Part shown: piece by piece, positions 434 through 15,786 of the stretch | Layout: each line of letters opens with the position of its first letter | Numbering within the stretch: position 1 is the stretch's first letter | IMG/VR virus record: IMGVR_UViG_3300050343_000285 | Span: 1-64,000 of that record | Reading direction: 5' to 3' (one strand) | DNA: 64,000 nucleotides | Origin: a virus | The notes under the pieces: generated by a model | Database searches by the model: none | Told to the model about the DNA's origin: nothing | Seen by the model: the letters and a program-made list of their open reading frames with translations, nothing else | Translations under genes and position numbers: made by a program

Positions 434-540
434 AACAAGTTCAACCCTAATAGTTTAAATGATACAAAATTTTGCTGACCTTATATTTTCACTGACTATC
501 AACTATTGGAGCAATCCTAATAGTTAAGGTAATACAAAGA

Positions 541-1282: not shown

Positions 1283-1506
1283 CTTAACCTCCTGTTGCTT
1301 TCTCTAGTTAATAAAATCTTTTAATCGGTTTTTTCTTCTTGACTATTTCTATATTTCTGTTATATTTATACAGGTCGGGAGGATAATACTAATATATTCT
1401 ATATATAAATACACCCTATCACCAACCAAGTACTATATCTTGATCATGCCTATAGATATTAAAATTATATAACCCATCATAATTGTTGTTATTAAAAATT
1501 CCATAA

Positions 1507-1689
1507 TTAAATTCTATTAGCCTCCATGCATTTGTTTTCATCTAATTTTGTATTAATATAAACTAAAGCAGACTCTAATGCTCCTTTAGCATCTTCTAGG
1601 TATTTTGTTTCTCCAGTACTATCGTGCCAATTCGTACGTATATTAGCAAAATTTATTAATTTCAATATCTGACTATTATAATTATTCAT
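1507..1689 (-). CDS. hypothetical protein (60 aa)
   Basis: ORF downstream of a 57-bp repeat. Confidence 0.6.
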   Translation of the reverse strand: MNNYNSQILKLINFANIRTNWHDSTGETKYLEDAKGALESALVYINTKLDENKCMEANRI

Positions 1690-1759
1690 AATACATTCCC
1701 TTAAAACTCGCTGACTATAACATCAAGACGCAAACCTGATAGGTTAGGTAATACAAATA

Positions 1760-1975
1760 TTAACCTAATTCACAACCATATAATCCAATACTAATCCCAT
1801 CCTTGTTATAACATTTACCAATAACAATAGAATTAAAACCATCATTATCAATACTTTGAATATAATGTTTCGTATACCTAGCACCTGACCAATAGTCATC
1901 AAATATTACAATCTTATCTATAATATTATCTTGACTAACAATCATTGCCCATCTTTCTTCCTGTATCAAAATCAA
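1760..1975 (-). CDS. hypothetical protein; probable start TTG at 1975 (track start 2014 lies inside the repeat)
   Basis: GGAGG immediately upstream of an in-frame TTG. Confidence 0.55.
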   Translation of the reverse strand: MILIQEERWAMIVSQDNIIDKIVIFDDYWSGARYTKHYIQSIDNDGFNSIVIGKCYNKDGISIGLYGCELG

Positions 1976-2281
1976 ATACCCTCCACTTTCGCTGACTATA
2001 ACCATTCTAACCAAACCTTTCGGTTTAGGTGTGACAATAGTTATCTCCTATTTATATTATAATTATAAAACCCTTCCTAAGTCCTTACTGGGAAACAACT
2101 TACGCCTCCTACCATTATATCGGATTTCAACCCCTTTGTCCATTAGGAAAAGAACGTAAGTCCTTGTCAGATATAGACTTATGAACATTAACTTTTCATC
2201 TTATTCATCTTATTATTATTGGCACATTTCGTGCGGCCGCTTTGTAGCTAAGTCCTTATCTAGTAACGACTTAGACATAAA

Positions 2282-2321
2282 TAAAAAAGAGAGGGCCGAC
2301 CTGACAACTAGGCCGACCCTC
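2282..2321 (-). terminator. intrinsic terminator after the DUF932 gene
   Basis: Minus strand GAGGGTCGGCCT-AGTTGTC-AGGTCGGCCCTC followed by TCTTTTTT. Confidence 0.75.
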
Positions 2322-2351
2322 AACTGGCAACGCACCACGAAAGGAGAGCGT

Positions 2352-3298
2352 TTAGAGCGAATTAGCGTATTCTGTTGCCAACGCTAAGGCTCGATTATTA
2401 GCAGCACCATTTTGACCAAACCACAGGCTTTCCATACGGTTATTAGTATTGCGACCTTTGGTGTAATTTAGATACTCGTTGAAGCCGTTGTAAGCAGCCC
2501 ACCACGTACCCTTAACTCCGGGCATACTTTGCTTTGGCCCTTCAATCGTAGCAAGAACATCATCAAGGATATTTTTGGTACGAGTTTTCAAGTCTTCGTC
2601 AGCAGTCTTTTCTACATTCAGCAATGTTTTAACATACTTGCGAACGTCAACCTGATTGAAGTTACGACCAGCAAGGAATCGGAACTGTTCAGCAGTAGCC
2701 TCGAACTGTCCGTTGATATTATCCATAATATCTCTGACATTATCTAGATTAGCCGCTGCACTTTTCGTATGTCTAATACGTAGAAGTTTGCTTACGCCGT
2801 TTTGGTGAGCAAAAGCCAAGGTATTGACACAAACAACACGAATTGGAGTGTATCCGACACGAATAGCGGTTGTGCCATCGTGACTGTTGGATAGAAGAAT
2901 AAACTTCTGCACCTCATCACCCTTGACAATTTCGCTAGGGTCACGGTTGAGTTGAGCCAAGGCCCAGACTTTTTGACCGTCACTTAACGAACCACCCGTA
3001 TGCAGACTGCATTCACCAGCATCAATAAATGGCTGAAACCAGTTAAAAGCATCTTTATTCTGAAGAGGAACATATCGTGGGCCGACTACACCTAAAATGG
3101 TATTGTCAGTCTTTCGATAGGTTGCTCTTGCAGGTACATCATAACCATCTTTGGTTACAAGGTCTTTCGTCCCTACTTCCCAATCAAGACCACTCGCCTC
3201 GATGCTTCCGAGATTGTTGGAGCATCTTCCAATTTTTCTCCAAGGCCATGCCAAGGAGTCGCTCCAGTGTAAAACATAGATTCAACATTAGCAGGCAT
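2352..3298 (-). CDS. DUF932 family phage/plasmid protein (frameshift near 3204)
   Basis: MPANVESMFYTGATPWHGLG start after SD AAGGA joins ASGLDWEV..., LLSNSHDGT, VRVVCVNTL, IRHT and GTWWAAYNGFNEY in another frame. Confidence 0.85.
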
Positions 3299-3453
3299 TT
3301 CAGTTCCTTTCGTAAGAGTGTCATTGCCTTTGTTCTCTCAGTATACCATATATATCGTCGGATGCAAGGGGTATTCTTTAAACAAAATAAAAATAAACGT
3401 AAGTCCTTGTCAGTAAACAACTTACGAGCAACCCGGCCGCACTATTTATGCCG

Positions 3454-4008
3454 TTATAGATATTCTATACCCAAGTCTTTTTTACAATATTCGGGATGGT
3501 TTCTGTATGCACACTCATCTTTTATATAAGAGTAAACCCCCATACACTTAGATCGTGAACTTTCTATATCAATACTTTTTAGGATATGCTTAATAGTATC
3601 TCCTGAACATATTAAATCATCAACAATAATATATTTCTTTGTATATGGGCCTTCTACATAGAATTTGCTGTACCCTTTTAAATCTTTCCTTACAATAATA
3701 ATGTTCTTTTTTAATAACTCAGCAATCTGTGGAACAATCATCAATCCGCTAGTACCACAACAGGCTATTGAATCATAATCAATATTTAACTTTTTTAGAT
3801 AAGAGTATGTTGTCATAATTATCCTATTTCGATATTTATGATTTAACAACTTAGAAGTATGAGCAGCGCCTTGTATAACGCTACCATCTTCATTTCTTCT
3901 GTATTCATCTAATTGTTGCATTAAAACATTCATAATATAAAGACTGGCGACCTGATTCGAACAGGCTATATAATTTATAACTAGATAGATATATGTGTCC
4001 CACCACAC
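3454..4008 (-). CDS. type I phosphoribosyltransferase-like protein (start probably ~3933)
   Basis: PRPP-binding motif YIIVDDLICSGDT; IACCGTSG and IIIVRK. Confidence 0.8.
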   Translation of the reverse strand: MWWDTYIYLVINYIACSNQVASLYIMNVLMQQLDEYRRNEDGSVIQGAAHTSKLLNHKYRNRIIMTTYSYLKKLNIDYDSIACCGTSGLMIVPQIAELLKKNIIIVRKDLKGYSKFYVEGPYTKKYIIVDDLICSGDTIKHILKSIDIESSRSKCMGVYSYIKDECAYRNHPEYCKKDLGIEYL

Positions 4009-4026
4009 CGCACCAGCCAGAAGAGA

Positions 4027-4206
4027 TCAGTATTCTATTTTATCACTAATATCATCATAATAATTCCAACTTTGTCTGTCAACGGTATCTTCTCTACAAT
4101 CTTCATCATACTCCTCATTATTAATCATGGACTCAATATAATTAGCGCTATTATCAAAAATATCATTATTGTTATCCTTTAATACTTTCCATTCAAAGCC
4201 ACTCAT
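4027..4206 (-). CDS. small acidic hypothetical protein (59 aa, below the track cut-off)
   Basis: MSGFEWKVLKDNNNDIF...; AAGGAGAG SD. Confidence 0.6.
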   Translation of the reverse strand: MSGFEWKVLKDNNNDIFDNSANYIESMINNEEYDEDCREDTVDRQSWNYYDDISDKIEY

Positions 4207-4244
4207 AAAATCTCTCCTTTGTGAAAACTACCGAACATCACCAG

Positions 4245-4317
4245 TACCCCCAGTAGGACTCGAACCTACAACATACGGTTTAAAAGACCGCTACTCTACC
4301 GATTGAGTTATAGGGGC
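4245..4317 (-). tRNA. trnK: tRNA-Lys(UUU), no encoded CCA
   Basis: Cloverleaf: GCCCCTA/TGGGGGT acceptor, anticodon loop CTTTTAA, GTTCGAGTC T-loop. Confidence 0.9.
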
Positions 4318-4321
4318 AAAG

Positions 4322-4394
4322 TAGGGCGTGAGGGAATCGAACCCACTTCTGTAGTTAATAAGACTACGGTCCTTGACCATTGAACGAACGCCCC
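4322..4394 (-). tRNA. atypical tRNA with anticodon UAU (Ile), U at position 37
   Basis: GGGGCGT/ACGCCCT acceptor, GTAGT-CTTATTA-ACTAC anticodon arm, GGTTCGATT T-loop with one T-stem mismatch. Confidence 0.7.
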
Positions 4395-4400
4395 GTAGCA

Positions 4401-4739
4401 CTACCACCAACTACTATATTCTACGCTCATGCCTTTGCAGATGGCTGCACGAGCATTCTGGATAAATTGAGTATCCTCATCCTTGTAATAATCATCACTA
4501 TCGCCACCAAAAAAGAAACCTTGAGTTTCTGGTAAATCTTTCTGATTAATGGCTTTATTGAGATCGTCAAGATCTTCTGTAGTTATTTCTACAGCCACGC
4601 AATTAAATTCTTCCTTGCCACCTTTTTTATGATACAAGTCTTCCATCCATCCCTGAAGATTAGGGTGTTTTCTCCAGCAAGCGATTTCTTCACTATTACC
4701 TTCTGAGTCTACAGCGTATGCAAATTGATCCAAACCCAT
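4401..4739 (-). CDS. conserved-looking phage hypothetical protein (MGLDQ...WRKHPNLQGWM...YSSWW)
   Basis: ORF with AAGGAG SD and sigma70 promoter TTGACT-16-TATAAT at 4759-4786. Confidence 0.8.
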   Translation of the reverse strand: MGLDQFAYAVDSEGNSEEIACWRKHPNLQGWMEDLYHKKGGKEEFNCVAVEITTEDLDDLNKAINQKDLPETQGFFFGGDSDDYYKDEDTQFIQNARAAICKGMSVEYSSWW

Positions 4740-4937
4740 TTGTCTCTCCTTTTCTTAAATTATACCCAAGATGTCCAATAAGTCAATAGTCCGCTAATGC
4801 TCTTCTCCGAATATCCATGCGGGTGCGAACTCTGCGAGGCCGGTTATCATGAGTACCAGAACCAGAACGATGAATGTTGTGTCCACGAGATACCTCCCAA
4901 GGTTTTTTAGTTGAAACTTTTATTGAACCACATTTAC

Positions 4938-5237
4938 TCATAGTTTATCCTTTAATAAGTCTTCAAGAAATTCCTTAGCAACATGATCAGGATCCTCTTC
5001 TACATCCACATCACATACATTTAGTTCTCCATCAAAAGCATCTCTGTATGCTACTCCTAAGTCTTCTAGTATGTAATCATCACGCTCATCTTCGTCTAAT
5101 TCCTGATACTCTGTACCTGTAATAATATGTTTATGAGATTCATTCTCTATATAATCTCCGATCCATTGAAATCTGATACTCTCAGGGTCAGCCTCAACCC
5201 AACCAGAAAACTCTATGATAATTTTAGTCATTACCAA
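4938..5237 (-). CDS. acidic hypothetical protein
   Basis: ORF track; GGAG SD. Confidence 0.65.
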   Translation of the reverse strand: MVMTKIIIEFSGWVEADPESIRFQWIGDYIENESHKHIITGTEYQELDEDERDDYILEDLGVAYRDAFDGELNVCDVDVEEDPDHVAKEFLEDLLKDKL

Positions 5238-5339
5238 GTTTCTCCACTATTAGGTCACAAATCATATCAATAGTGCTAGGATCACTACGACCATCAAGGA
5301 TACATCTAATGTCTTCTTGCATTTGTTCACATATCTCGT

Positions 5340-5513
5340 TCACTTTCTGCTCCAATCTCTAAAGAACTCCCATCGAATCCCAACGTCCATTGTACCATCT
5401 ACTGGTCGATTGTCAAGGGATATTGTTTTATTACAGAACATAGTGGTTTTTGTAGTTGTTACACATCCACTACAGAATATCAAGATGAACGCCAAACATA
5501 GTCTATATACCAT
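5340..5513 (-). CDS. small putative lipoprotein (57 aa)
   Basis: MVYRLCLAFILIFCSGC lipobox-like N-terminus; AAGGAGG SD; sigma28-like element at 5535-5562. Confidence 0.55.
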   Translation of the reverse strand: MVYRLCLAFILIFCSGCVTTTKTTMFCNKTISLDNRPVDGTMDVGIRWEFFRDWSRK

Positions 5514-5668
5514 TCCACTACCTCCTTAAGAGTTATATCGTCATCCTCAAGGATTTTCTTTACCTTATCTGTCTCTACCTGATTCATCACACTCATCTTG
5601 TGATTTAGGTAATCTAATACTGTTGTTATTTTTTCTTTTTTATCCAATATTATTCTCCAAATAGTTAA

Positions 5669-5740
5669 TAGCCCCGGCGAGAATCGAACTCACATCGACG
5701 GTTTAGAAGACCGCTGTTCTATCCGTTGAACTACGAGGCC
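5669..5740 (-). tRNA. trnR: tRNA-Arg(UCU)
   Basis: GGCCTCG/CGGGGCT acceptor, GCGGT-CTTCTAA-ACCGT anticodon arm, GTTCGATT T-loop. Confidence 0.9.
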
Positions 5741-5748
5741 AATAAGAA

Positions 5749-5797
5749 AGCCAGAGCCGCAGTCTTGGTTATCCCCATTGACGCTGCGACTCTGACT
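5749..5797 (-). other. long RNA hairpin (14-bp outer stem) between the ORF and tRNA-Arg; terminator or processing site
   Basis: AGTCAGAGTCGCAG/CTGCGGCTCTGGCT with G-U pairs only on the minus strand. Confidence 0.6.
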
Positions 5798-5804
5798 ATT
5801 CCGA

Positions 5805-6065
5805 TTAGGCTGTAGCAACTTCTGCTTCTACCCTAGCCTTAGATGCCTTATGAGCATCACCGGCTTCTTTAACGCCAATACCGAACTTACGGTTGCGAGC
5901 AACTTTCCATCCTTGTTCTGAATATTCCTTAACACCGTCTGCTTTACACAGGGCTAGAGTATCTTCAGGCAATCCGTCAGTAAGTGCTTGACGAATTGTA
6001 TCTTCGATAACTTCGGTATCAAGTGCCTCAGAAGCAATAGTAACATTAAAAGAAAAAGCCTTCAT
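5805..6065 (-). CDS. hypothetical protein (86 aa)
   Basis: ORF downstream of composite promoter 6142-6170. Confidence 0.7.
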   Translation of the reverse strand: MKAFSFNVTIASEALDTEVIEDTIRQALTDGLPEDTLALCKADGVKEYSEQGWKVARNRKFGIGVKEAGDAHKASKARVEAEVATA

Positions 6066-6252
6066 GGTGAAATCTCCAAAAGTAAACCAAACTTAGTAAC
6101 TCGCACAGTGCTTGTCACTTATAATATCATTCTACCATATATTATCGTCATGTCAACCTTAATAACTTGAGGAAAGGTAAAAAAATAATCTCTCGTAAGT
6201 CGTTGATATAAAACAACTTAGGCATGCTGCGTGCGGCCGTTTTTACAGAAAG

Positions 6253-6590
6253 ACCCGTTACAGCCCTACTTCTCAAAGATGTCTTTTAGTCAAATAAGAC
6301 TAATAACCCTCATAACGATTTTCAGCGATCTGTAACGGGTAATAGATAAACCGCCTTGCCCCATGAAACAATAACAGGATAGGTCTTACAGGCGGTTATA
6401 TTATTGGACGGGGAGGACTTCTTTTTCTACCTCCAACTTTTCAGGGCATGATATGTCAGTGTTCCCTACTTCGCACCGCTAGCCCAAACCTCAAGCACTC
6501 GCCCGTTGGTAAGGATTCGCGTACTGTTGCACCCTCATGCGGGCCAGCACACTTTCAGTCACCGTCCTATAACAGGGTAGCGAACCCTGC
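6253..6590 (-). ncRNA. structured non-coding cassette containing a 163-nt tRNA-like multibranch RNA (6405-6567) and flanking long stems
   Basis: GGACGG/CCGTCC+A closing stem stacked on GGAGG/CCTCC; GCTGGCCC/GGGCTAGC; AACCGCCT/AGGCGGTT; ACCCGTTACAG/CTGTAACGGGT; GC-rich; no ORF of 60 aa or more. Confidence 0.7.
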
Positions 6591-6601
6591 TATGTATTGT
6601 A

Positions 6602-7117
6602 TTATGTTTCCTCCATAGTATCATAGTATTCGTGCATACTGAACTCATCTCGCAGAGATTCTGGAAAATCGTTCCAGTTGCCCTCATAAGAATCATCCGT
6701 ACCATTGTGCCATATTCCGGCAAAACTCATCCCTGGCTCAAAATAGGACGCTTGTACGTCAAATCCCAAGACTACCAACCTCTCATAGAATCCCAATGGA
6801 GGACTCCATGCACTATCGAACGTTATACTAAGTTCGTTATCTACCCTAGTTGGTTCCAGACCATACCCATCTCCACATCCAATATCCCACTTTGTACCCC
6901 AATTGGCTACACGCCATAGATACCAGTTGTTGTTTACGTTATCATCTTTGCTCATAGCCTTATTCTCACCCATCATCATAGTTGGATCACTGGGATCTCG
7001 TGGAGTAGGATAGAAAGTTTCGATAGTCCAATCATTCCGATAGGCTTTCTCGAATTTGTCCAGCATAGACTTATCTTCGTGTGTTACAGTCAATTTATTC
7101 ATGCACCAATTAGGCAT
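6602..7117 (-). CDS. YubB/Api92-like (DUF1281) ferredoxin-like domain protein
   Basis: MPNWC...WYLWRVANWGTKWD...FDSAWSPP...YFEPGM signature. Confidence 0.8.
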   Translation of the reverse strand: MPNWCMNKLTVTHEDKSMLDKFEKAYRNDWTIETFYPTPRDPSDPTMMMGENKAMSKDDNVNNNWYLWRVANWGTKWDIGCGDGYGLEPTRVDNELSITFDSAWSPPLGFYERLVVLGFDVQASYFEPGMSFAGIWHNGTDDSYEGNWNDFPESLRDEFSMHEYYDTMEET

Positions 7118-7508
7118 AACATCTCTCCTCTACAATATGTATTCTGTTGCCGTCCGTGACCAGACTATTAAAGTCATAGTCGTCCCAATCAAAATCGCCG
7201 TCATCATTCACTCGTCTCCAACTTGGCTCGACTATAGGATTATAACATAATCTTTCTAGGTTGTCAATAGGTATACTACCCTTTTCATTTATAAAAAAGT
7301 TATCACATTCTACCCAACCACAGACATCCTTCTTTCCTGCTGCATGAACTTTCTTAGCAGCATTTTTTTTATTTATTAGTATACAGCCTGTCATTTCGAT
7401 CTGATACTTTTGTGGATCAAGATACGAGACTGTACCATCCCATGCTCTAATCTGCCAGTGCATATAGTGCTTACCACGTTGCAAGTGAAATCGTACTCTG
7501 TATTTCAT
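7110..7508 (-). CDS. hypothetical protein (start MKYRVRFHL; track start overlaps the promoter)
   Basis: GGAGAAGGAG SD before the ATG at 7508. Confidence 0.7.
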   Translation of the reverse strand: MKYRVRFHLQRGKHYMHWQIRAWDGTVSYLDPQKYQIEMTGCILINKKNAAKKVHAAGKKDVCGWVECDNFFINEKGSIPIDNLERLCYNPIVEPSWRRVNDDGDFDWDDYDFNSLVTDGNRIHIVEERCYA

Positions 7509-7601
7509 AATTATCTCCTTCTCCCTAGTATACATTATCGGCATTATATTGTCAAGAACTTTAGTAATTTCGCTGACTGCACCATTGCCACCAATCCTAT
7601 A

Positions 7602-7822
7602 GGATAGGGTGAGACATAATAGGACTTAGGCATTACTCGTACTAGAGCAACTCTTTCCCGTATACCTGTCAGGCTGCCAAGGTGGTATACGCCCTATCCA
7701 TCTTAATGTACGGCCATCGCACTAGGGACTTGCACCCTACAAGTATCTCCGAATGTTTGACGACAAAGCCTTATCGTATCACAATCTTGGGCTTGAATAC
7801 TTGGGTAACTCTTCCGTGCCAT
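7602..7822 (-). ncRNA. second structured non-coding cassette: tRNA-like ~107-nt RNA (7716-7822) plus a multibranch hairpin (7602-7699)
   Basis: ATGGCAC/GTGCGAT acceptor-like stem, TAGGG-TGCAAGT-CCCTA T-arm, CAAGTATT/GATACTTG; GGATAGGG/CCCTATCC enclosing GTATACC/GGTATAC; directly downstream of promoter 7843-7870. Confidence 0.65.
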
Positions 7823-7941
7823 GTATTGTAAGTATACTATATTTATCGTCATTGTCAATAGTATTCTTTAGTATAATATAGAAATAATTATGGCACAAGG
7901 AGTGCGGCCGGGTCGCACGTAAGTCCTTATTCTACAACAAC

Positions 7942-8169
7942 TTACGTAGGGTATCCTTCTTTTCTTAAAATGTCTTTAGTTGGTACGACAAAAGTTAATT
8001 GGTCCGCATTCGTATAGTCTTTCATTCCACGCTGATCAATATACATATACTCGTCTAAAATATCATGTTTATTCATTTCATGTATCACTGTTCTACAGGC
8101 AGCGTAGGGTTGTTGACTTGTCGAATAAATTAATTGTAGAGTACCACTTGAAATATAATATTTAGCCAT
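7942..8169 (-). CDS. hypothetical protein (75 aa)
   Basis: ORF; stop codon falls inside a 29-bp inverted repeat. Confidence 0.65.
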   Translation of the reverse strand: MAKYYISSGTLQLIYSTSQQPYAACRTVIHEMNKHDILDEYMYIDQRGMKDYTNADQLTFVVPTKDILRKEGYPT

Positions 8170-8389
8170 CTATCCATACCTCCGAGTGTGAATATTCCAT
8201 ATCTATATCACATCCACCGCAAACAGGAGTTCCATTCTGTTCGTACCAATCTGGCATTATCTCAACTTCTGTACTACAGTCTTGACATATCCAAAAATTT
8301 TTTATGTGATCATCTGGTATTTTTGTAAACATTATAGGATTCTTTCTTAATGAGATGGAAACAATACGTTGCCTAATCCCTTTACGCAC
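8162..8389 (-). CDS. small zinc-ribbon protein (start probably 8332)
   Basis: CQDC...CGGC pairs. Confidence 0.65.
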   Translation of the reverse strand: MRKGIRQRIVSISLRKNPIMFTKIPDDHIKNFWICQDCSTEVEIMPDWYEQNGTPVCGGCDIDMEYSHSEVWIDG

Positions 8390-9057
8390 AAATTACAGGC
8401 TACACTATTCTTAGTAGGGGTGCAAGTAACAACACCACGACCACGACGAATCTCTGGACAAGTAATATATTTTTCTTCACCAAGAACAACCAACTTGGGC
8501 AGACTATCACGCCATTCTTGAGCCTTAACCTTTCCCCTTGGACGTTTAGTAGCAATTTTTTCGTCGCTATCGCACCATGCGAATAATTTGAAACCTACCG
8601 CTTTGGCATCGAGAACATTTTGAGCATTGTGGACACTAGCATATACAGCCATATACTTGTCCAGACTAACAAGCCGACTATCATAAATATGAGTATAAAA
8701 CCACATATCTGGCAAATTACCACCAGAGGCAAGAATACTCTCGCAAGCCCATACGATATTATCGACATATTCTACATCCAATTCTGAACCATTTTTATAA
8801 AAATCACCACGCTCATGCCAACGAATAGACTTATCTTTTTTTTCTGCGTTCACTATCATAGCACGGATTTTGTTTTTCTCCGTGATTAGATTCTGCATAC
8901 CAGCAGGACGAACACCGGGATAAATTTTTTCTAATTGTTCGGCATAACAACCATTACCTAGAAAATCACAACTAGGCGGGCATGTGTCCCCAACTGGTCG
9001 AGAAACTACAATACATTTTTCTTTACCTAGTTTATCATTACCGTTTGCTGTTTTCAT
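8347..9057 (-). CDS. phage gp88-like protein
   Basis: TCPPSC...GCYA, IRWHERGDF, WFYTH, YASVH, TCPE...C...CNLC pattern. Confidence 0.7.
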   Translation of the reverse strand: MKTANGNDKLGKEKCIVVSRPVGDTCPPSCDFLGNGCYAEQLEKIYPGVRPAGMQNLITEKNKIRAMIVNAEKKDKSIRWHERGDFYKNGSELDVEYVDNIVWACESILASGGNLPDMWFYTHIYDSRLVSLDKYMAVYASVHNAQNVLDAKAVGFKLFAWCDSDEKIATKRPRGKVKAQEWRDSLPKLVVLGEEKYITCPEIRRGRGVVTCTPTKNSVACNLCVKGLGNVLFPSH

Positions 9058-9311
9058 AATACTGCTCTCCGTGTGTGTGCTTCAAGTATATCATATTATC
9101 GTCTGGTGTCAACTAAAAACTATAGAAAAAATAAAAATAATGTTTGGCACAGAATTTGCTACACTTTCGCTGGCTATACCATATCGGCCCAGCCTTTAGG
9201 CTTAGATAAGACATGAGGTCTTTCGGCACACGGAGTGCGGCCGGTCCGCACCTAAGTCATTGCTGGGCAACAACTTAGGGCGGTTCACGGCACACACACC
9301 ACGGAAGAGAG

Positions 9312-9695
9312 TTATGCTACTGCCCAACCAAATAATGGCTTGCGGCAGTTCTTTACACGTTCGCAGTAAAACTGTCGAACATTACCATCCACTGTTTCAC
9401 ATGTTACCAAATGATTGGTACGCTGAAACTTTGGATCATTTCGACGATAGGTACTATGAGCATTCATTTTACGAATTGTCCGCTCGTCGAACTTTACAAC
9501 AGGCTCCACAACGCGAGCCAAAACACGTTTTGAGTCTCCGTGTAGAGGTTGCATATACTCAAAGTTGTATACTTCTCCAACTTGAGCATTGCACAAACTA
9601 GCACGAAAACCACCATATACAGCATAGATACCAAACGCAATCAACGCAAGGGCTCCTGCTGCTAAGATACCAGCAATCAACATTACATTATCCAT
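9312..9695 (-). CDS. hypothetical protein with N-terminal TM helix (start MDNVML)
   Basis: Hydrophobic LIAGILAAGALALIAFGIYAV; upstream sigma70 promoter 9733-9761. Confidence 0.7.
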   Translation of the reverse strand: MDNVMLIAGILAAGALALIAFGIYAVYGGFRASLCNAQVGEVYNFEYMQPLHGDSKRVLARVVEPVVKFDERTIRKMNAHSTYRRNDPKFQRTNHLVTCETVDGNVRQFYCERVKNCRKPLFGWAVA

Positions 9696-9757
9696 TATAA
9701 AACTCCTAAGTGTGAAAACCAAACCTAAAACCATTCTACCATACTCTTGACACCGTG

Positions 9758-10060
9758 TCAAGCCTTAATCGTCATTCCATCCTCAAAAGGTGTAATCCCA
9801 TTTACATACCATTCCCAATTTTCTTGGCGTACATAAAAAGGACTAAACTTATTGATTCTGTCTTTTGTCGTGGGTGATTTGTGCCCACCATGTCTTAGCG
9901 TTACGCTGTCGTCATCATGAATAGTAACAACATCCGTACTGTATAACATGAAAGCCACGCTACCATCCGGCTTGATTCTTGCGGTGGTATTATTGGCTAC
10001 CTTACGTTGCATTCTGTTAGTCTTACCTAAAACCAATTGTGTTGCTTCTGCGTGTGTCAT
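9758..10060 (-). CDS. hypothetical protein (100 aa)
   Basis: AAGGAG SD; composite promoter 10082-10110. Confidence 0.75.
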   Translation of the reverse strand: MTHAEATQLVLGKTNRMQRKVANNTTARIKPDGSVAFMLYSTDVVTIHDDDSVTLRHGGHKSPTTKDRINKFSPFYVRQENWEWYVNGITPFEDGMTIKA

Positions 10061-10184
10061 AAGTATTTCTCCTTACTTGTTATATCGTCAATTATACAGG
10101 GTAAACTTTAGTTGTCAACAGAAAAAAAAGAAAATAATTTTTGGCATACTGCGTGCGGCCTCTTTTTATGTAAGTCCTTATAGA

Positions 10185-10529
10185 TCAATCACTTACGTTC
10201 ATATCTCTGTGACCCCAAAATCTCATTTCGTTTTCTTTATCATCCCAATAGCATTGTACCTCATCTTTAGAACATAGTTCGGCTAATACAAAACCCATAT
10301 TCATACTATTGACATCTTCTAAAAACATTTCCATTTTTTCTCTAGTAGATATAAACTCCCCATCGTCTTCTTCACAATAGCCACGTAAATGATTAATCAA
10401 CATACCCTCATTAAGATTTTCAAAGTCTGGAATTATATGTTCAACAACGCGATTAAGATCTACCGCAAATTCTTCCATGGTTTTTCTCCTTAATTTTTCA
10501 AAATCAGCAACTAACAACCAACTCATCAT
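10185..10529 (-). CDS. acidic hypothetical protein (start probably ~10478)
   Basis: ORF; 3' end overlaps a 29-bp inverted repeat. Confidence 0.6.
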   Translation of the reverse strand: MMSWLLVADFEKLRRKTMEEFAVDLNRVVEHIIPDFENLNEGMLINHLRGYCEEDDGEFISTREKMEMFLEDVNSMNMGFVLAELCSKDEVQCYWDDKENEMRFWGHRDMNVSD

Positions 10530-11097
10530 CCTGTACTAAATTACGCTCTAGCATACGATCCATAATAGTATCCATAAGCCTACCATAATCATATGTTGGC
10601 TCATCTTGAAAATCAAGCCCTTCCGACGGGTGAATAATAAAGTCTAAGGTATCATGAGGTATTGATGCTGTTATCTTATCCCCACTATGTTCAAAATACT
10701 TACAAATATTATTATAACTACCTACAGCAATAGAATATGGTGCAGAAGTTTGAGTAAGTATGATGTAATCAAACATTTTTTCTATATTATAGTTTTTACC
10801 TAACTTGTTAGCAATCGTTACAGCATTGGTTTTGCCAGTACGTTTCTGGAACATTTTTTGTTGAGATTTTCCAGATACTCGTTCTTTACAAAAAGTCCAA
10901 TCGTATCCAACCTCATCTACATATTCTAGATATGGAAAAACTTTAGCATATTTTTTATCAATCAGTTTTGCTTTCATAAATCTGTGACCAGAATCATTTA
11001 AGCTGGCTCCAATGTTATGGCATTGTTGAAGTAGTTCGTGACAGCTTTTTGGACTGTTAGTTAAATAAGCTGAGAGTAAATTACTTACGGTTTTCAT
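10504..11097 (-). CDS. hypothetical protein, possible PD-(D/E)xK nuclease fold
   Basis: GYD...ERVSGK and FDYIILTQ motifs (weak). Confidence 0.6.
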   Translation of the reverse strand: MKTVSNLLSAYLTNSPKSCHELLQQCHNIGASLNDSGHRFMKAKLIDKKYAKVFPYLEYVDEVGYDWTFCKERVSGKSQQKMFQKRTGKTNAVTIANKLGKNYNIEKMFDYIILTQTSAPYSIAVGSYNNICKYFEHSGDKITASIPHDTLDFIIHPSEGLDFQDEPTYDYGRLMDTIMDRMLERNLVQDDELVVSC

Positions 11098-11159
11098 AGC
11101 GTTGTCCTTTCGTATTTAGTATCTTACCATACTATTATCGACGTGTCAATATCAAAACT

Positions 11160-11465
11160 TTATTCTTCGTAAGTAATAAATACCCACGACCACTCTCTGG
11201 TTTTTAGATTGTATTTATAATGTTTATAAACTACCCTATTGTAAATATGTCTATTGTCCACAGTGGTTTTAAGAATATCATTTTCCAGACTTATATCTAC
11301 TATATCAGAGTAGGGAAAGTCTAACAGCAAACGATAGTCGCTACTGTAAAACCAGTAGGTATTATATGTCTTATTGTATGTTCTATGGACACGTTCACCT
11401 ATATAATCTAAATCAATTACACAGTTTCCTGAAATAGCTAATCCTAAAATTAGTTTTAATAACAT
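11160..11465 (-). CDS. hypothetical protein, signal-peptide-like N-terminus
   Basis: MLLKLILGLAISGNC; AAGGAG SD. Confidence 0.65.
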   Translation of the reverse strand: MLLKLILGLAISGNCVIDLDYIGERVHRTYNKTYNTYWFYSSDYRLLLDFPYSDIVDISLENDILKTTVDNRHIYNRVVYKHYKYNLKTREWSWVFITYEE

Positions 11466-11647
11466 TTTGTTTTCTCCTTGTTTTAGTCTTAAGTATTGCT
11501 ATTCTACCAATTATTATCGTCTAGATCAAGCAATTTCTTGATTTTTATTTTGGTAGCTGTAAGTGCTTGTCAAATAAGAACTTAGGCACGCAGAGTGCGG
11601 CCGGGTAGCCCCTCTAGGGGGTGAACCCTATTTGAGGAGCATTACCT

Positions 11648-11860
11648 TCAATTAGATGTAATATTGTTGTAAGGATAATTCCCATTATAAGGGCTGTTAC
11701 CATAATTCGGACTAGGCTCTTCTGGTCTTTCCTCGTAGTATTCTTCTCGTTCATATTCGCTCTCCTTAGCGTCTAACATATCCCTGAGATACCAACACAA
11801 CAACGTGCCGCATACATATCCTATCGTCAAACTAGCAACGTCAAGTTGAATAAAATTCAT
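11648..11860 (-). CDS. small membrane protein
   Basis: Hydrophobic N-terminal segment; overlaps the upstream stop codon (ATGA). Confidence 0.6.
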   Translation of the reverse strand: MNFIQLDVASLTIGYVCGTLLCWYLRDMLDAKESEYEREEYYEERPEEPSPNYGNSPYNGNYPYNNITSN

Positions 11861-12087
11861 TCTCCCTTATACTCCTCATAAGTGAAACTTTGTACGCCAT
11901 TACGATATTGTTGCTCTACAACACCTGAAATTGCTACAATATTTTCTTGACGATCTTCTGGTGTGTTAAGATCAATTCTAGGTACTGCTACCATGATTGT
12001 CAAGTTGTCCTGCTCTTCGCCTGTAATTTCATCGACAATATTTTTGCAATCGTAGTATCTAAAATTTGGATCCATCGCGTTATTCAT
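11857..12087 (-). CDS. hypothetical protein
   Basis: Translationally coupled ORF. Confidence 0.65.
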   Translation of the reverse strand: MNNAMDPNFRYYDCKNIVDEITGEEQDNLTIMVAVPRIDLNTPEDRQENIVAISGVVEQQYRNGVQSFTYEEYKGE

Positions 12088-12266
12088 TTTTCATCCCTGT
12101 ATCGTTTGAGTAATTCTTTAGAACCTGATCGAACCACATTTTCTAATATCTCTAATTCTGTCAAGTCTCCTCTCAATTTTGCTTTCGGGATGTCCTTTCC
12201 ACATTCCCTAACCCACATCTGTATATCTTCGGTTGGAAATTCGTCAAAATAGTATGGCATATCCAT
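12084..12266 (-). CDS. hypothetical protein
   Basis: Translationally coupled ORF. Confidence 0.6.
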   Translation of the reverse strand: MDMPYYFDEFPTEDIQMWVRECGKDIPKAKLRGDLTELEILENVVRSGSKELLKRYRDEK

Positions 12267-12269
12267 AGT

Positions 12270-12533
12270 TTAACCCCAATCTTCTGGATACTCAAGACAG
12301 TCGTGGTAGCATTCCCATTCCGCCCCGTATCCGTATAGATCGTTACATTCCTGCTCAAGATCAGGCTGTCCGTCATCATCCCCATCATAGAAGGCATGTT
12401 CGTACTGATCATCCTCCATCATGTCACGGGTGTCAAGACCATCAACAACGTCCTCATCTGAACGATAAATGTTTTCAGCAGGTGTCATAACTTTTCTCCA
12501 ATTGGGTCTTGTTGTTATATTCCAAGTATACAA
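12270..12533 (-). CDS. acidic hypothetical protein (start probably ~12488)
   Basis: Track start overlaps promoter 12537-12564; GGAGAAAAGTTATG. Confidence 0.6.
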   Translation of the reverse strand: MYTWNITTRPNWRKVMTPAENIYRSDEDVVDGLDTRDMMEDDQYEHAFYDGDDDGQPDLEQECNDLYGYGAEWECYHDCLEYPEDWG

Positions 12534-13022
12534 TCATTATCGACATTGTCAAGCGAAATCTTTATTTTTTTTCATAGATTGTGTCCAAGTAAATTTCCTC
12601 CGGCGTGATAACATAACCATACTCACAATTAGGGGTATACACTCCGAAATATACTTTTCCGTTGTCGTACCCTTCGAACCCGATCATCATGCCAAAGATA
12701 GTGTAGATTGTCAACATCATTTTTCTCCGTGGGTTATTGTTTCCTATATATATTATCGACTTGTCCAGGCGAAAACATTAGGATAAAAAAGAAAATTTTT
12801 GGGAATTCACTGGCTGTCGTGCTATGACAAGTGAAGCGGGAGGCTTAGGTGCGACAGAACGTATACCAACTTTGGCGGCCGGTCGAACTGCTCGTAAGTC
12901 CTTTACTGACAACAACTTACGATTACTTTATGTTAAATACTAATTTAGTAAACATATAAGCAAACAACAACACGTACCCCATCGAAACGATAGGGCCGTA
13001 TTGCTGAATGAATGGAACCAAG

Positions 13023-13286
13023 TCAAGCCACGGCTGCATCATCTTCTTCTACCTCGTCGTCTTCCGCATCTTCAGCAAAACATGCTGCGTTGATCTCATC
13101 TATATCTAAGTTGCTATCATTCCATGCTACATGGTCAGGAGTTTCCAGTGAATCCAACTCCCGCATAGTACCAACAAACTCATCATAATTAGCACAAGAC
13201 ATGCTGAGATTGTAGAGCCCTTCATCGTTAGCAATCCACAAGCAAACATTCCACGTTTCATAGTTTTCATATCCGTTGTAACTCAT
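13023..13286 (-). CDS. phage hypothetical protein (YNGYENYETWNVCLW type)
   Basis: GAGG SD; sigma70 promoter TTGACG-16-TATACT at ~13332-13359. Confidence 0.75.
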   Translation of the reverse strand: MSYNGYENYETWNVCLWIANDEGLYNLSMSCANYDEFVGTMRELDSLETPDHVAWNDSNLDIDEINAACFAEDAEDDEVEEDDAAVA

Positions 13287-13490
13287 GATAGCCTCTCAAG
13301 TAAAATCATTGAAACAGTAACCACTAAGAAAAGTATAACACACATTCCATCAGCGTCAAATCTTTTTTTCATCTTTAACTCCTTACTGTTATATCGACAT
13401 TATATACAGTATAACTTTAGTTGTCAATAGATAAATTTAAAATATTTTGCGGCCGCACTCCCTGTGCCTAAGTCCTTTACCGATAATGGT

Positions 13491-13919
13491 TTACGTCAAC
13501 AATACATATCGTTTCTTATTACCTCCCATTGTTTCCAGTTTTGAAATTTTATGTCGAAAAAATAAGGCTGCTTTCCCTTGTATATATCTACTGCTTAGAT
13601 GTTGATTCATTTCCTCGAATGATATTTTATCTTTACCCTCTACCATCTGATTCCATATAACATCTTTCTGCTCTGATGTAACATACTTAGGATTCATAGG
13701 AGTAGCAGTCATACTCTTCATCTTTTGTTCAATTTGTTTCTCTACAAACTCTGGTGATAGGTCACTCATAATATCAGAGTACTGTTCTTTTATATCCTTT
13801 ACTCTCTGCTCATATCGTTGGTACTGCTCTATTATCAGTCGATTCTGAATTAGTACTTCTGCCATATCTCTGCACATATCATCTAATGCTGTCAATCTTG
13901 TTTCAAAATCCATAATCAT
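13491..13919 (-). CDS. hypothetical coiled-coil protein
   Basis: ORF track; coupled to the upstream gene. Confidence 0.7.
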   Translation of the reverse strand: MIMDFETRLTALDDMCRDMAEVLIQNRLIIEQYQRYEQRVKDIKEQYSDIMSDLSPEFVEKQIEQKMKSMTATPMNPKYVTSEQKDVIWNQMVEGKDKISFEEMNQHLSSRYIQGKAALFFRHKISKLETMGGNKKRYVLLT

Positions 13920-14182
13920 TCTCCTTTGGATGTTTTATTGCCCCATGCTTTAATAGCAGATACTGAACATGCGTGAAGGTTATTGTCAAATTTAAATATA
14001 CCTCCTACCGTTTCAATACTCTCTGTTGCCCAACCCTTACCATCATTCATGTCTTCTCTGTAATAACACATCTCCGTTCCTTTATAAGTATACATATCTA
14101 CAACTTTCCTACGCCATCCATGACCCTTTTTTCTTTCCCATACACTTCCGGTTTCTACTGTAATTATTTTTCTGTTACTCAT
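13916..14182 (-). CDS. hypothetical protein
   Basis: Coupled ORF. Confidence 0.65.
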   Translation of the reverse strand: MSNRKIITVETGSVWERKKGHGWRRKVVDMYTYKGTEMCYYREDMNDGKGWATESIETVGGIFKFDNNLHACSVSAIKAWGNKTSKGE

Positions 14183-14343
14183 TGTAAAAGTTCCTGCAAT
14201 GTAAAATGTTGTCTGCTACTCTCATTCCGTCCTTATCGTCAGTCTCCCAACAAGACACGTAGTACATTTGTACCAAACGAGTTGATAACTTGTCAAGGAT
14301 ATCATATAGGTTCTTTTCAATTAGTTCGTTCATTGTAAGCATA
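14175..14343 (-). CDS. hypothetical protein (start MLTMNEL)
   Basis: GGAGAG SD inside the end of the upstream gene. Confidence 0.55.
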
Positions 14344-14679
14344 CTCTCCTGTGTCATAGTTTCTAATCTCTTGTAGTCTATCAGCAATTTCAAAATGGTC
14401 AAGCCATCCAAATACTTCTACCGCCCCATGTCGCTTGTGTATAGGATGACTCTCTAATACTTTGTACGACATATTAGGATCGGTGCCGTGTTTATGTTCT
14501 ATAATCCAGACTTCAAAGTAGCCGCTATTCCCGCCATAACTTTTGTCATGATTACACACAATAGCACCAAGCCCATTAGAGAAAAAATAACGCTTAACAT
14601 ATCGACCCTTCTCTTTCATATACTGGGAATCAAAATATGTTTCATTTAGTTTCAGTGGGTTCACTTTAGTTGTGATCAT
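14317..14679 (-). CDS. hypothetical protein (FSNGLGA...YGGNSGYFEV type)
   Basis: GAGGAG SD. Confidence 0.7.
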   Translation of the reverse strand: MITTKVNPLKLNETYFDSQYMKEKGRYVKRYFFSNGLGAIVCNHDKSYGGNSGYFEVWIIEHKHGTDPNMSYKVLESHPIHKRHGAVEVFGWLDHFEIADRLQEIRNYDTGEYAYNERTN

Positions 14680-14878
14680 TTTTTACTCCTCAATATGTGA
14701 TAGTGTGAATGGGATTATAACATGATCGGCTACCTTTTGTCTAGCCTCAGTTTCTGTCATGGCCCCAACTTCGCCAATCTTATTTCCTTGTAGGTCAATT
14801 ACAGCCCAAACATTTTTTCTAGGATACACTACGCAATTATTGTTACTCATTTTAATTTCTCCTTATTTATAAAGTTTA

Positions 14879-15061
14879 TCAGCCAGCCCCGTGGAAGTCA
14901 AGGCTAGATTCAAAATGTACAGCTTCCGAACAATCAAAGTCTGTACGATCTTCGATAACCTCACAATGTTCGTAGCATGTGGGACAGATGTCTGCGTCGG
15001 AGTGAACCGAAGCACCACAGCAGTCTGAAGAGTAAACGATTTCAAAGTTGTTATTTAACAT
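14879..15061 (-). CDS. small Cys-rich (zinc-binding) protein
   Basis: SDCCGA...ICPTCYEHC; promoter 15113-15140. Confidence 0.7.
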   Translation of the reverse strand: MLNNNFEIVYSSDCCGASVHSDADICPTCYEHCEVIEDRTDFDCSEAVHFESSLDFHGAG

Positions 15062-15299
15062 TTTCTTTTCTTTCTAATCTTTGTTACTTGTTATATCTGA
15101 AGTATATATACTATATCGGAATTTGTCAAGCAATAATTTAGAAATATTTTTATTTTTTTTCTGTGTGCAAATATCATGCCATAATTTTTTTTCTTTTGGC
15201 ACATGATTTGCTATATGTTAAGATAGGTAACCCGGCCGGGCGAAATGCTCGTAAGTCATGATGTGGCAACGACTTACGAACATCCACCCCAATGGGTGA

Positions 15300-15512
15300 T
15301 TATGCAGCCTGATAGTGGCGTATACGATTACTTCTTCTTACTCTTTTTAGTTTTTCTCGTACGGCTTCTTTCATAAGTTCAGCAACTACACTATATTTTT
15401 TTGTAGTGTAAGTCTGTTCATTATCTCTTAGATCTTGTCCAAGTGTACGGATCCAAGCATCTAGTTCAACTGTTTTCATTTGCTGGAAAGTACTCATAGG
15501 TTTATTCTCCAA
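15300..15512 (-). CDS. hypothetical protein
   Basis: ORF track. Confidence 0.6.
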   Translation of the reverse strand: MENKPMSTFQQMKTVELDAWIRTLGQDLRDNEQTYTTKKYSVVAELMKEAVREKLKRVRRSNRIRHYQAA

Positions 15513-15786
15513 ATGGTGATTGTTCTAAGGTGGTTGCATAATGTAAACGTAACGCTGCTATTCTTTCATCACTTCCCGGTTTACCTACTGGTATAATCAT
15601 ATCGTCTTTACTACTAAGATACCTATCGTCTACCTTCGCTTGCTCACTCTTTACAATTTTTCTCATAGCCTTTCTATTAAACTTATGAACCGTACCATCC
15701 TGTTCAACACCTTTCCATATCATACTACATTCATCCCATGCAGCGGATAAAATAGGATATTTTCTCATTAGTTTTTCTGTACTCAT
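15502..15786 (-). CDS. hypothetical protein
   Basis: ORF track. Confidence 0.65.
   Translation of the reverse strand: MSTEKLMRKYPILSAAWDECSMIWKGVEQDGTVHKFNRKAMRKIVKSEQAKVDDRYLSSKDDMIIPVGKPGSDERIAALRLHYATTLEQSPFGE

What the first reader, a model, noticed from the sequence alone, without database searches (positions are those of the whole stretch)
2076..15278. Twelve 29-bp 11-7-11 inverted repeats with variable spacers
The consensus is YGTAAGTCCTT-N7-AACAACTTACG with an invariant TAAGT-N15-ACTTA geometry. Copies are almost all intergenic or at gene ends, and three are clustered at 2076-2275. The arm/spacer layout resembles tyrosine-recombinase core sites (established: ~11-bp arms, 6-8-bp overlap). 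However, nearly all the 7-bp spacers differ, which would block recombination between copies. That favours operator, nucleoid-binding or stoperator-like sites, or relics of cassettes acquired one at a time. No recombinase lies in this window.
Basis: partly seen in the sequence, partly recalled or inferred. Interest (0 to 1): 0.8.

Follow-up and report, generated by a model that had tools for sequence, protein, structure and literature searches.

The report
Dyad sites before phage early promoters
Twelve copies of a conserved two-armed DNA word sit between early gene blocks of an uncultured 195-kb marine phage; they most likely bind a still unknown regulatory protein next to early promoters and are not recombination sites.

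Summary
There are 11 exact TAAGT-N15-ACTTA sites against 0.31 expected, plus one variant. All lie at 2076-15278, and the rest of the 194,787-bp genome has none.

The motif belongs to a large family. It turned up in at least 118 IMG/VR stretches, clustered in one 10-20 kb region of each of 36 whole records. This scan had already noted its paired 78-bp form in two other phages (e1-5706757, e1-5369069).

Four tests favour a protein-binding DNA site over a hairpin or a crossover site:
- Arms are kept by sequence, with no compensatory changes.
- 512 of 519 sites hold the half-site TAAGTCCTT.
- The 7-bp centre carries almost no information.
- Site-to-site spacings (42/53/64/77) and site-to-promoter spacings (20/30-31/41-42/51/61/72) follow the DNA helical repeat.

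The whole genome has no tyrosine or serine recombinase and no Y1 transposase.

The window's copies are single sites, rigidly coupled to a GC-rich module (GGCAY-N5-GTGCGGCCG). They sit just after gene ends and before sigma-70-type early promoters. These modules are also the points where relatives gain, lose and reorder gene cassettes, as with PeSLs.

The binding protein was not identified.

The parts
2076..2104 (-). A site copy 1 (TAAGTTGTT-N7-AAGGACTTA). It lies about +5 downstream of the TGGACA-17-TATAAT promoter.
2155..2183 (-). A site copy 2, 14 bp upstream of the -35 of the TGGACA-17-TATAAT promoter.
2247..2275 (-). A site copy 3. It directly follows an intrinsic terminator-like hairpin plus T-run (about 2277-2320).
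3398..3426 (-). A site copy 4, 29 nt after a gene stop and 32 bp before the TTGCAT -35.
6194..6222 (-). A site copy 5, 39 bp before the -35.
7918..7946 (-). A site copy 6. Its TAA is the stop codon of ORF 7942-8169. It lies 61 bp before the -35.
9251..9279 (-). A site copy 7, with its flanks conserved in four related loci (L196, L087, L172, L112).
10169..10197 (-). A site copy 8. It overlaps the end of ORF 10185-10529 and lies 52 bp before the -35.
11558..11586 (-). A site copy 9, 30 bp before the -35.
12893..12921 (-). A site copy 10.
13467..13495 (-). Copy 11, the variant type (TAAACC-N-AAGGACTTA), recurrent in relatives. Its TAA is the stop codon of ORF 13491-13919. It lies 41 bp before the -35.
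15250..15278 (-). A site copy 12.
2221..2239 (+). GC module B (GGCAY-N5-GTGCGGCCG), with a 9-bp gap to copy 3.
3434..3452 (-). GC module B in opposite orientation, with a 9-bp gap to copy 4.
6221..6239 (+). GC module B abutting copy 5.
7892..7910 (+). GC module B, with a 9-bp gap to copy 6.
9225..9243 (+). GC module B, with a 9-bp gap to copy 7.
10143..10161 (+). GC module B, with a 9-bp gap to copy 8.
11585..11603 (+). GC module B abutting copy 9.
13450..13468 (-). GC module B in opposite orientation, abutting copy 11.
12876..12881 (.). Degenerate GC module (CGGCCG core) next to copy 10.
15233..15238 (.). Degenerate GC module (CGGCCG core) next to copy 12.
3340..3367 (-). Early-type promoter (-35, CGATA box, -10) downstream of copy 4.
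6129..6156 (-). Early-type promoter downstream of copy 5.
7831..7858 (-). Early-type promoter downstream of copy 6.
11501..11529 (-). Early-type promoter downstream of copy 9.
10091..10118 (-). TTGACA-16-TATAAT promoter downstream of copy 8.
13399..13427 (-). TTGACA-17-TATAAT promoter downstream of copy 11.
2114..2142 (-). TGGACA-17-TATAAT promoter bracketed by copies 2 and 1.

Best explanation
Each copy is a dyad-symmetric DNA binding site for a dimeric, sequence-specific protein that is still unidentified. The protein is phage-encoded or possibly host-encoded. It would read two 9-bp half-sites (consensus TAAGTCCTT) across an uncontacted 7-bp centre, touching the two outer TAAGT blocks two helical turns apart on one face of the DNA. 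In this phage each site is rigidly joined to a GC-rich module. It stands right after the end of one early transcription unit and on a fixed helical face upstream of the next sigma-70-type early promoter. Bound protein would therefore modulate the early promoters (most likely shut-off or timing) and/or insulate one unit from the next. In relatives it would do so through a symmetric two-site, 78-bp complex. As a by-product, the repeated site-plus-promoter modules serve as homology patches at which gene cassettes are exchanged between related phages. What is shown: the sequence statistics, the geometry, the positions and the family distribution. What is inferred: that a protein binds, what kind it is, and the sign of the regulatory effect.
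For: (1) Arms are conserved by sequence, not by pairing. In 186 non-ascertained, non-redundant sites from 118 IMG/VR loci, none of the variable arm positions pairs more often than shuffling predicts: positions 6-20 give 104 observed against 110.8 expected, 7-19 give 76 against 69.9, 10-16 give 95 against 107.2, and 0-26 give 89 against 86.0.
(2) Of 519 sites, 512 hold at least one TAAGTCCTT-type half-site. Perfect palindromes of the two variant half-sites are almost absent: TAAAC/TAAAC 0 and TTGTT/TTGTT 2.
(3) A position-anchored logo (n=207) has information at positions 1-5, 8-9, 17-18 and 23-25, and only 0.02-0.29 bit across the centre, positions 10-16. Orthologous copies keep their arms while spacers change freely.
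(4) Neighbouring sites lie 42, 51-54, 64 or 77 bp apart; 36 of 52 close pairs fall at 51-54. In 128 doublets both inner half-sites are consensus in 84, both outer in only 25, so the complex is symmetric around the GC core.
(5) The distance from site end to -35 peaks at 20, 30-31, 41-42, 51, 61 and 72 bp (n=163 after collapsing near-identical cases). With the main peak removed (n=111), periodicity is maximal at 10.5-10.75 bp (R=0.31-0.32 against at most 0.14 at 8-9.5 and 12-15 bp) and keeps the same phase. Six of nine measurable window copies (30, 32, 39, 41, 52, 61 bp) fall in that phase.
(6) There is no orientation bias relative to the adjacent promoter's direction in relatives: 61 against 85, with 13 ambiguous, out of 159.
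(7) The GC module sits at only two fixed offsets from the site, 0 or 9 bp. All 8 GTGCGGCC words in the genome lie next to a site.
(8) Copies 2 and 1 bracket a promoter.
Against: No binding protein was found. HTH_3 and phi29 p4 families are absent from the genome. Three widely conserved early proteins are each missing from 10-12 of 36 site-bearing records.
Seven of the 15 early-type promoters in this genome (166-192 kb) have no site, so the site is not needed for promoter activity.
All 11 strict window copies share one orientation and sit right after stop codons, which also suits an RNA 3'-end role.
In relatives L049/L067 an intrinsic terminator occupies the place of the site-plus-module at 3400.
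The phasing statistics use related sequences, so the p-values overstate independence. Phased A-tract spacers could partly reflect shared descent.
Confidence: 0.55

Rival explanations
1. The site acts as an RNA hairpin in the early transcripts: an attenuator, a 3'-end stabiliser or a processing site at the end of each transcription unit.
For: The copies directly follow or overlap stop codons. All 11 strict window copies are oriented so that the arm mismatches become G-U on the coding strand. The mean fold energy is -9.4 kcal/mol on the sense strand against -7.8 on the antisense strand. An intrinsic terminator replaces the element in L049/L067. One G-U to U-G double change is seen between orthologues of copy 7.
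Against: The hairpins are weak (-2.1 to -20.9 kcal/mol), AU-rich, and have no U-tract. No covariation appears at any variable arm position. Perfect-palindrome variants are missing. In relatives the hairpin-favourable strand is the promoter's strand in 61 nearest sites and the opposite strand in 85. A real terminator already precedes copy 3. Contigs from RNA libraries run across at least 8 of the 12 copies, which is weak evidence because DNA carry-over is possible. Helical phasing to promoters has no RNA rationale. No Rfam family matches.
Confidence: 0.12
2. The sites are recombination sites. Either they are core sites of a site-specific recombinase supplied in trans, or, more modestly, their main role is to provide homology for cassette shuffling in the PeSL manner.
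For: The 9-7-9 geometry matches tyrosine-recombinase cores (geometry recalled from memory). Relatives carry the same early genes with cassettes missing or reordered, and alignments break at the site/promoter modules, for example at window 3360, 6100, 9165, 10126, 12769 and 13468. A public-contig joint from 12745 to 13468 ends at the edge of copy 11.
Against: The 195-kb genome has no tyrosine recombinase, serine recombinase or Y1 transposase. The 12 spacers all differ. No listed joint has both ends in a site. Alignment breaks at gene ends are expected anyway where coding sequence meets fast-evolving spacer. Helical phasing to promoters and half-site rules are not explained. Homologous exchange at the repeats is compatible with the main explanation as a side effect.
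Confidence: 0.15
3. The sites are selfish or neutral dispersed repeats of the REP/BIME or MITE kind, with no role for the phage.
For: They are extragenic imperfect palindromes of two subtypes, paired around a linker, with variable presence among close relatives.
Against: No RAYT/Y1 transposase is present. The word is conserved across records of 58-244 kb and always confined to one 10-20 kb region. Registers with promoters and with the GC module are fixed.
Confidence: 0.08

Closest known systems
78-bp double-palindrome boundary elements noted earlier in this scan (e1-5706757, e1-5369069; AI notes on other uncultured ~200-240-kb phages)
   Same: The same 9-7-9 dyad word, the same 52-53-bp pairing around a GC core, and the same place between a gene end and an early promoter. 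I re-derived these features independently on IMG/VR loci.
   Different: In this window the sites are single, not paired, and they are coupled to a specific module, GGCAY-N5-GTGCGGCCG. This phage has a different structural gene set: a 2932-aa tape measure and no PHROG matches to most large ORFs.
PeSLs (promoter-early stem-loops) of T4-type phages (PMC2839356: outline and section 13 read; PMC4122927: passages read)
   Same: A repeated module of a sigma-70-type early promoter plus an upstream dyad, placed after the stop of the previous gene, concentrated among small accessory genes, and marking the points where relatives differ by cassettes.
   Different: PeSL stem-loops are generic G/C-rich terminators whose sequence differs between phage pairs. 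Here a single AT-rich word is conserved across a wide clade, folds weakly, shows no covariation and is helically phased to the promoter. Nothing found here marks this phage as T4-like: most large ORFs had no PHROG match, but no T4 core gene was searched for.
phi29 p4 binding sites (PMC3100819: passages read)
   Same: A pseudo-inverted repeat with 15 bp between the outer words (phi29: CTTTTT-15 bp-AAAATG). Both protomers sit on one DNA face. Sites come in pairs beside early promoters, and asymmetric half-sites are tolerated.
   Different: The sequence is different. No p4 homologue is present in the genome. There are 12 dispersed sites instead of 4 in one control region. Binding was not tested.
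Tyrosine-recombinase core sites (lambda att core, dif, loxP; features recalled from memory)
   Same: Inverted arms around a 6-8-bp centre.
   Different: There is no recombinase, no shared centre sequence and no crossover products. The most conserved bases are distal to the centre.
REP/BIME elements of enterobacterial chromosomes (recalled from memory)
   Same: Extragenic imperfect palindromes of distinct subtypes, paired in inverted order around short linkers at operon ends, and known to bind architectural proteins.
   Different: These lie on a phage genome. There is no RAYT and no pairing covariation. The register to promoters is fixed.
Stoperators of Cluster A mycobacteriophages (recalled from memory)
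   Same: Many dispersed intergenic copies of one word; in this window all point the same way.
   Different: Stoperators are asymmetric 13-mers tied to transcription direction across the whole genome of temperate phages. Here the site is a dyad, confined to 13 kb, and unbiased in orientation in relatives.

Membership tests
Tyrosine-recombinase core site | Inverted recombinase-binding arms around a 6-8-bp overlap | tested here: met
   9-7-9 geometry
Tyrosine-recombinase core site | Identical overlap sequence in partner sites | tested here: not met
   The 12 spacers are all different
Tyrosine-recombinase core site | Cognate recombinase encoded by the element | tested here: not met
   PF00589 gives 0 matches in the 194,787-bp genome, while the control rings in 14 of 14 genomes; PF00239 and PF01797 also give 0
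Tyrosine-recombinase core site | Recombinant junctions within the overlap | tested here: inconclusive
   None of the 15 listed joints has both ends in a site. These are contigs only, 14 joints were not shown, and the runs were RNA libraries
PeSL (promoter-early stem-loop) | Sigma-70-type early promoter in the repeated module | tested here: met
   A consensus-like promoter lies 14-61 bp downstream of 7 copies; promoters inferred from sequence only
PeSL (promoter-early stem-loop) | Stable stem-loop acting as a terminator | tested here: not met
   Fold energies of -2.1 to -20.9 kcal/mol, AU-rich stems, no U-tract, no covariation; termination itself was not assayed
PeSL (promoter-early stem-loop) | Marks points of modular shuffling between related phages | tested here: met
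   Cassettes are missing or reordered in L112, L084, L049/L067, with alignment breaks at the modules
Intrinsic terminator | G+C-rich hairpin followed by a U-run | tested here: not met
Dispersed protein operator (dimer-binding dyad) | Half-site sequence conserved, centre free, no pairing covariation | tested here: met
Dispersed protein operator (dimer-binding dyad) | Fixed or helically phased register to promoters | tested here: met
   Peaks at 20/30-31/41-42/51/61/72 bp; the best period is 10.5-10.75 bp; sequences are not independent
Dispersed protein operator (dimer-binding dyad) | A cognate DNA-binding protein | tested here: inconclusive
REP/BIME | RAYT (Y1) transposase and hairpin covariation | tested here: not met
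phi29 p4 sites | p4-family protein present | tested here: not met
   PF05464 gives 0 matches
Known RNA family (Rfam 15) | Match to a curated covariance model | tested here: not met
   Only tRNAs were found in window 1-18500 and in ten bacterial loci

The most novel reading that the evidence does not exclude
A large, globally distributed clade of uncultured 60-240-kb phages shares one previously undescribed architectural regulator. The regulator would recognise TAAGTCCTT half-sites and assemble as a symmetric dimer-of-dimers on 78-bp double dyads around a GC core. In this marine phage the assembly would use single dyads plus a GGCAY-N5-GTGCGGCCG module. The complex would sit on a fixed helical face upstream of host-type early promoters, timing or insulating each early gene cassette. 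The same modules would be the joints at which cassettes move between phages. That would be a new DNA-binding family and a clade-wide 'cassette boundary' system.
Probability: 0.35. Interest if true: 0.7.

Novelty: new variant of a known kind. Interest (0 to 1): 0.55.

Why it matters
Early gene control in large uncultured phages is almost unknown. Here one 25-bp word, conserved from a 195-kb marine phage to 240-kb phages from other metagenomes, marks every early cassette in a rigid register with host-type promoters. It gives a concrete handle for fishing out the regulator by DNA pull-down or one-hybrid screening. It also gives a sequence tag for recognising the early region in metagenomic phage contigs, and a testable model of how accessory gene cassettes are insulated and exchanged. 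If the binder is a phage protein it is probably a new fold or family, since none of the usual HTH, p4 or recombinase families is present.

Tried and rejected
N4-type hairpin promoters for a giant virion RNA polymerase. The 2932-aa ORF is a tape measure: PF10145 matches at 5.9e-22 and there is no polymerase hit in the PDB.

Known RNA family. None matched.

Sigma-54 reading of the GC module (a lead from note e1-5803400). The GG-N10-GC spacing fits. However, six of eight copies would fire antisense, the position relative to the site varies, and distant relatives have only a generic GC core. I did not pursue it further.

IHF consensus. Only the subset of sites whose spacer ends in ATC fits (by eye; the consensus is recalled).

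Lambda Int core word CAACTT and Tus/Ter likeness. Both are recalled from memory. The orientation relative to the centre is opposite, so I dropped them.

Megablast and tblastn against GenBank phages. There is no close cultured relative.

Binder hunt.
- tblastn of 311 genome ORFs against the loci.
- Pfam and PHROGs on 15 proteins gave only DUFs (DUF932, GP88/DUF7227, DUF7249, Kyano_Gp96) and one weak sigma-70 region 2 hit.
- Three conserved early proteins were searched in 36 whole records. They were present in 26, 26 and 24 records and absent from some records with many sites, for example the 12-site G027, which is only 53% complete. None is therefore a clear partner.
- The ESM Atlas gave nothing.
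- A profile search against the PDB gave nothing.

Transcript evidence. Only contigs of four RNA libraries could be laid. They cover the region and bridge sites but cannot show ends or strand. Parts without cover and small shares are not used as evidence.

Bacterial genomes. The scan stopped at 120 stretches. Several are mis-binned phage contigs carrying the GC core. Others are multi-copy repeats in Latescibacterota, Pedosphaera, Bryobacterales and Pirellulales MAGs, coding repeats in Bacteroidota, or probably chance singles. Flanking genes (LRR proteins, MsrAB, RsgA) gave no clue. This remains unresolved.

Crude ORF-based orientation test. It was too noisy, with 64 sites falling 'inside' spurious ORFs, so I replaced it with the promoter-anchored test.

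Literature. Four full-text searches found no description of this word or element. Supplementary files were not consulted.

Full report
**1. The observation**

TAAGT-N15-ACTTA occurs 11 times in the window, against 0.31 expected. The fuller 27-mer with up to 3 mismatches occurs 10 times against 0.01 expected.

The window is bases 1-64000 of a 194,787-bp IMG/VR virus record that CheckV rates complete. The whole record holds only these 11 sites. A weight-matrix scan adds the twelfth copy at 13465-13497.

Genes in 1-18.2 kb run on the minus strand. Read on that strand, the 11 strict copies are all TAAGT(T/C)GTT-N7-AAGGACTTA. The copies are intergenic or overlap only gene ends, and twice the TAA of the site is the stop codon.

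**2. Local anatomy**

Each intergenic gap reads, in the direction of transcription:
- gene stop;
- the site (called A here);
- a GC-rich module B;
- an A/T-rich stretch;
- a consensus-like sigma-70 promoter of a special build (TTGACA, N3-5, CGATA, then TAnnnT);
- a Shine-Dalgarno sequence and the start codon.

B is GGCAY-N5-GTGCGGCCG. All 8 GTGCGGCC words of the genome lie beside an A site, as do 9 of the 11 CGGCCG words. B takes only two registers and their mirror images: abutting A, or 9 bp away. The GC module lies on the AAGGACTTA side in 7 of 10 copies.

Copy 3 follows a good intrinsic terminator. Copies 2 and 1 bracket a TGGACA-17-TATAAT promoter.

Seven further early-type promoters at 166-192 kb have no A or B.

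**3. A wide family**

In 36 whole viral records of 58-244 kb there are 1-13 strict sites each, against 0-2 for the reversed control. In the records whose sites were listed, nearly all fall in one 10-20-kb region.

These records share the window's early genes and promoter build. No cultured relative was found.

The phage itself is present in seawater and viral metagenomes of 12 studies.

Two earlier notes of this scan describe the paired form of the element in other phages. I treated them as leads and re-derived the features myself.

**4. Hairpin or protein site?**

Covariation. In 186 non-ascertained, non-redundant sites, no variable arm position pairs more often than shuffling predicts.

Half-site types. 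Sites found only by their position, 53 bp from a strict site, show that the partner site is a hybrid: TAAGTCCTT-N7-AAGGGTTTA or its reverse. The window's twelfth copy is of this type.

Half-site composition. Among 519 sites the combinations are:

| Half-site pair | Count |
|---|---|
| H1/H3 | 186 |
| H1/H2 | 186 |
| H1/H1 | 140 |
| H2/H3 | 5 |
| H3/H3 | 2 |
| H2/H2 | 0 |

Here H1 = TAAGTCCTT, H2 = TAAACCCTT and H3 = TAAGTTGTT. A hairpin would accept H2/H2. A protein that needs one good half-site would not.

Information content. The position-anchored logo (n=207) has information at positions 1-5, 8-9, 17-18 and 23-25, and almost none at 10-16. This is the pattern of contacts in major, minor, (free), minor, major grooves along one face of the helix; that groove assignment is my inference.

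Orthologues keep their arms and change their spacers.

Fold energies are weak and barely strand-biased.

**5. Geometry**

Close neighbours are 42, 51-54, 64 or 77 bp apart, and 36 of 52 such pairs fall at 51-54. Doublets are symmetric, with consensus half-sites next to the GC core: both inner halves are H1 in 84 of 128 doublets, both outer in 25 of 128.

Distance from site end to the -35 has peaks at 20, 30-31, 41-42, 51, 61 and 72 bp (n=163). Without the main peak, the best period is 10.5-10.75 bp, in the same phase. The spacers of the different classes differ in sequence and contain phased A/T tracts.

The window's own distances are 30, 32, 39, 41, 52 and 61 bp, which are in phase, and 14, 122 and 140 bp, which are not.

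Orientation relative to the downstream promoter is unbiased in relatives: 61 against 85, with 13 ambiguous.

Caveat: the sequences are related, so the p-values are not exact.

**6. Recombination**

The genome has no tyrosine recombinase, serine recombinase or Y1 transposase. All spacers differ.

Relatives nevertheless carry the same early genes with cassettes missing (L112) or reordered (L084), and alignments break at the A/promoter modules. L049/L067 have an intrinsic terminator where the window has B plus A at 3400.

Contigs from four RNA libraries show many joints at module borders. None of the 15 listed joints has both ends in a site.

I read this as PeSL-like homologous shuffling at repeated regulatory modules. 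It is a side effect, not site-specific recombination.

**7. The binder**

It was not found. HTH_3 and phi29 p4 families are absent. The conserved early proteins are DUFs.

Three of them are present in 24-26 of the 36 records, but they are absent from several records with many sites. The best-conserved one (alignment A1) has no PDB relative and no Atlas neighbour.

**8. Comparison and verdict**

- PeSLs share the place, the promoter and the shuffling. They lack the conserved word, the weak fold and the phasing (PMC2839356 section 13 read; PMC4122927 passages read).
- phi29 p4 sites share the N15 geometry, the one-face binding, the pairing of sites and the early-promoter context (PMC3100819 passages read). 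No p4 homologue is present.
- Four full-text searches found no description of the element.

Best reading: a dispersed dyad operator or architectural site, probability 0.55. Rivals: RNA hairpin 0.12, recombination site 0.15, selfish repeat 0.08.

The finding is a new variant of a known kind and is moderately interesting.

Noticed in passing
window 25630-26289 (+): A 219-aa ORF with a weak sigma-70 region 2 match (E 6.3e-05, 23.1 bits against a cut-off of 24). It is shared with 19 related loci and is a possible phage sigma factor. It sits next to an N-terminal HTH-like 272-aa ORF and an HNH ORF.
   Followed up: partly
window 43601-52399 (+): A 2932-aa ORF with a PhageMin_Tail domain: an exceptionally long tape-measure protein, implying a very long tail.
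   Followed up: partly
window 3340-15129, and genome 166801-191698 outside the window (minus strand): Fifteen promoters of one unusual build: TTGACA, N3-5, (C)CGATA(A/T), N5-10, TAnnnT, usually preceded by TAAAG about 8 bp upstream of the -35. The same build occurs in distant relatives. Other first-stage notes call these nested sigma-28/sigma-70 promoters.
   Followed up: partly
window 16745-18202 (-): A 485-aa free-standing endonuclease gene at the border of the early region. PHROGs report HNH; a GIY-YIG-like N-terminus is visible by eye.
   Followed up: partly
window 6066-6601 and 7545-7941 (-): Two long gaps without ORFs downstream of early promoters. RNA-library contigs cover them. Other notes of this scan propose structured RNAs here.
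   Followed up: no
window 3454-4008 (-) and 3941-4018: The ORF carries a PRPP-binding-type motif seen by eye (phosphoribosyltransferase-like). Its 5' part overlaps an ARAGORN 'tRNA-???' call with a 4-base anticodon, which Rfam did not confirm.
   Followed up: no
L123, L138, L145, L160, L163, L208 (Latescibacterota MAGs); L151, L154, L181, L182, L207 (Pedosphaera); L128, L168, L234 (Bryobacterales): The exact 18-base word also sits in multi-copy chromosomal repeats of high-GC bacteria. Examples are after a poly-G run, or as two copies 76 bp apart beside GTTACGCTT iterons, upstream of LRR-protein genes. Whether these are related to the phage sites or are chance is open.
   Followed up: partly
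L210, L140, L177 and other Bacteroidota loci: The word recurs inside tandem coding repeats of about 228 bp. These are probably coincidental matches amplified by repetition.
   Followed up: no
window 2114-2183 and relatives L067, L049, L112, L081, L044, L053: A conserved block, TTCCTAATGGACAAAGG...CCGATATAATGG, follows an A site at a fixed distance. This is a second promoter type, whose transcript would start just before the next A site.
   Followed up: partly
window 1-18500: The phage or close strains are present in seawater and viral metagenomes of 12 studies, and in contigs of four marine RNA libraries at 90-99% likeness.
   Followed up: partly
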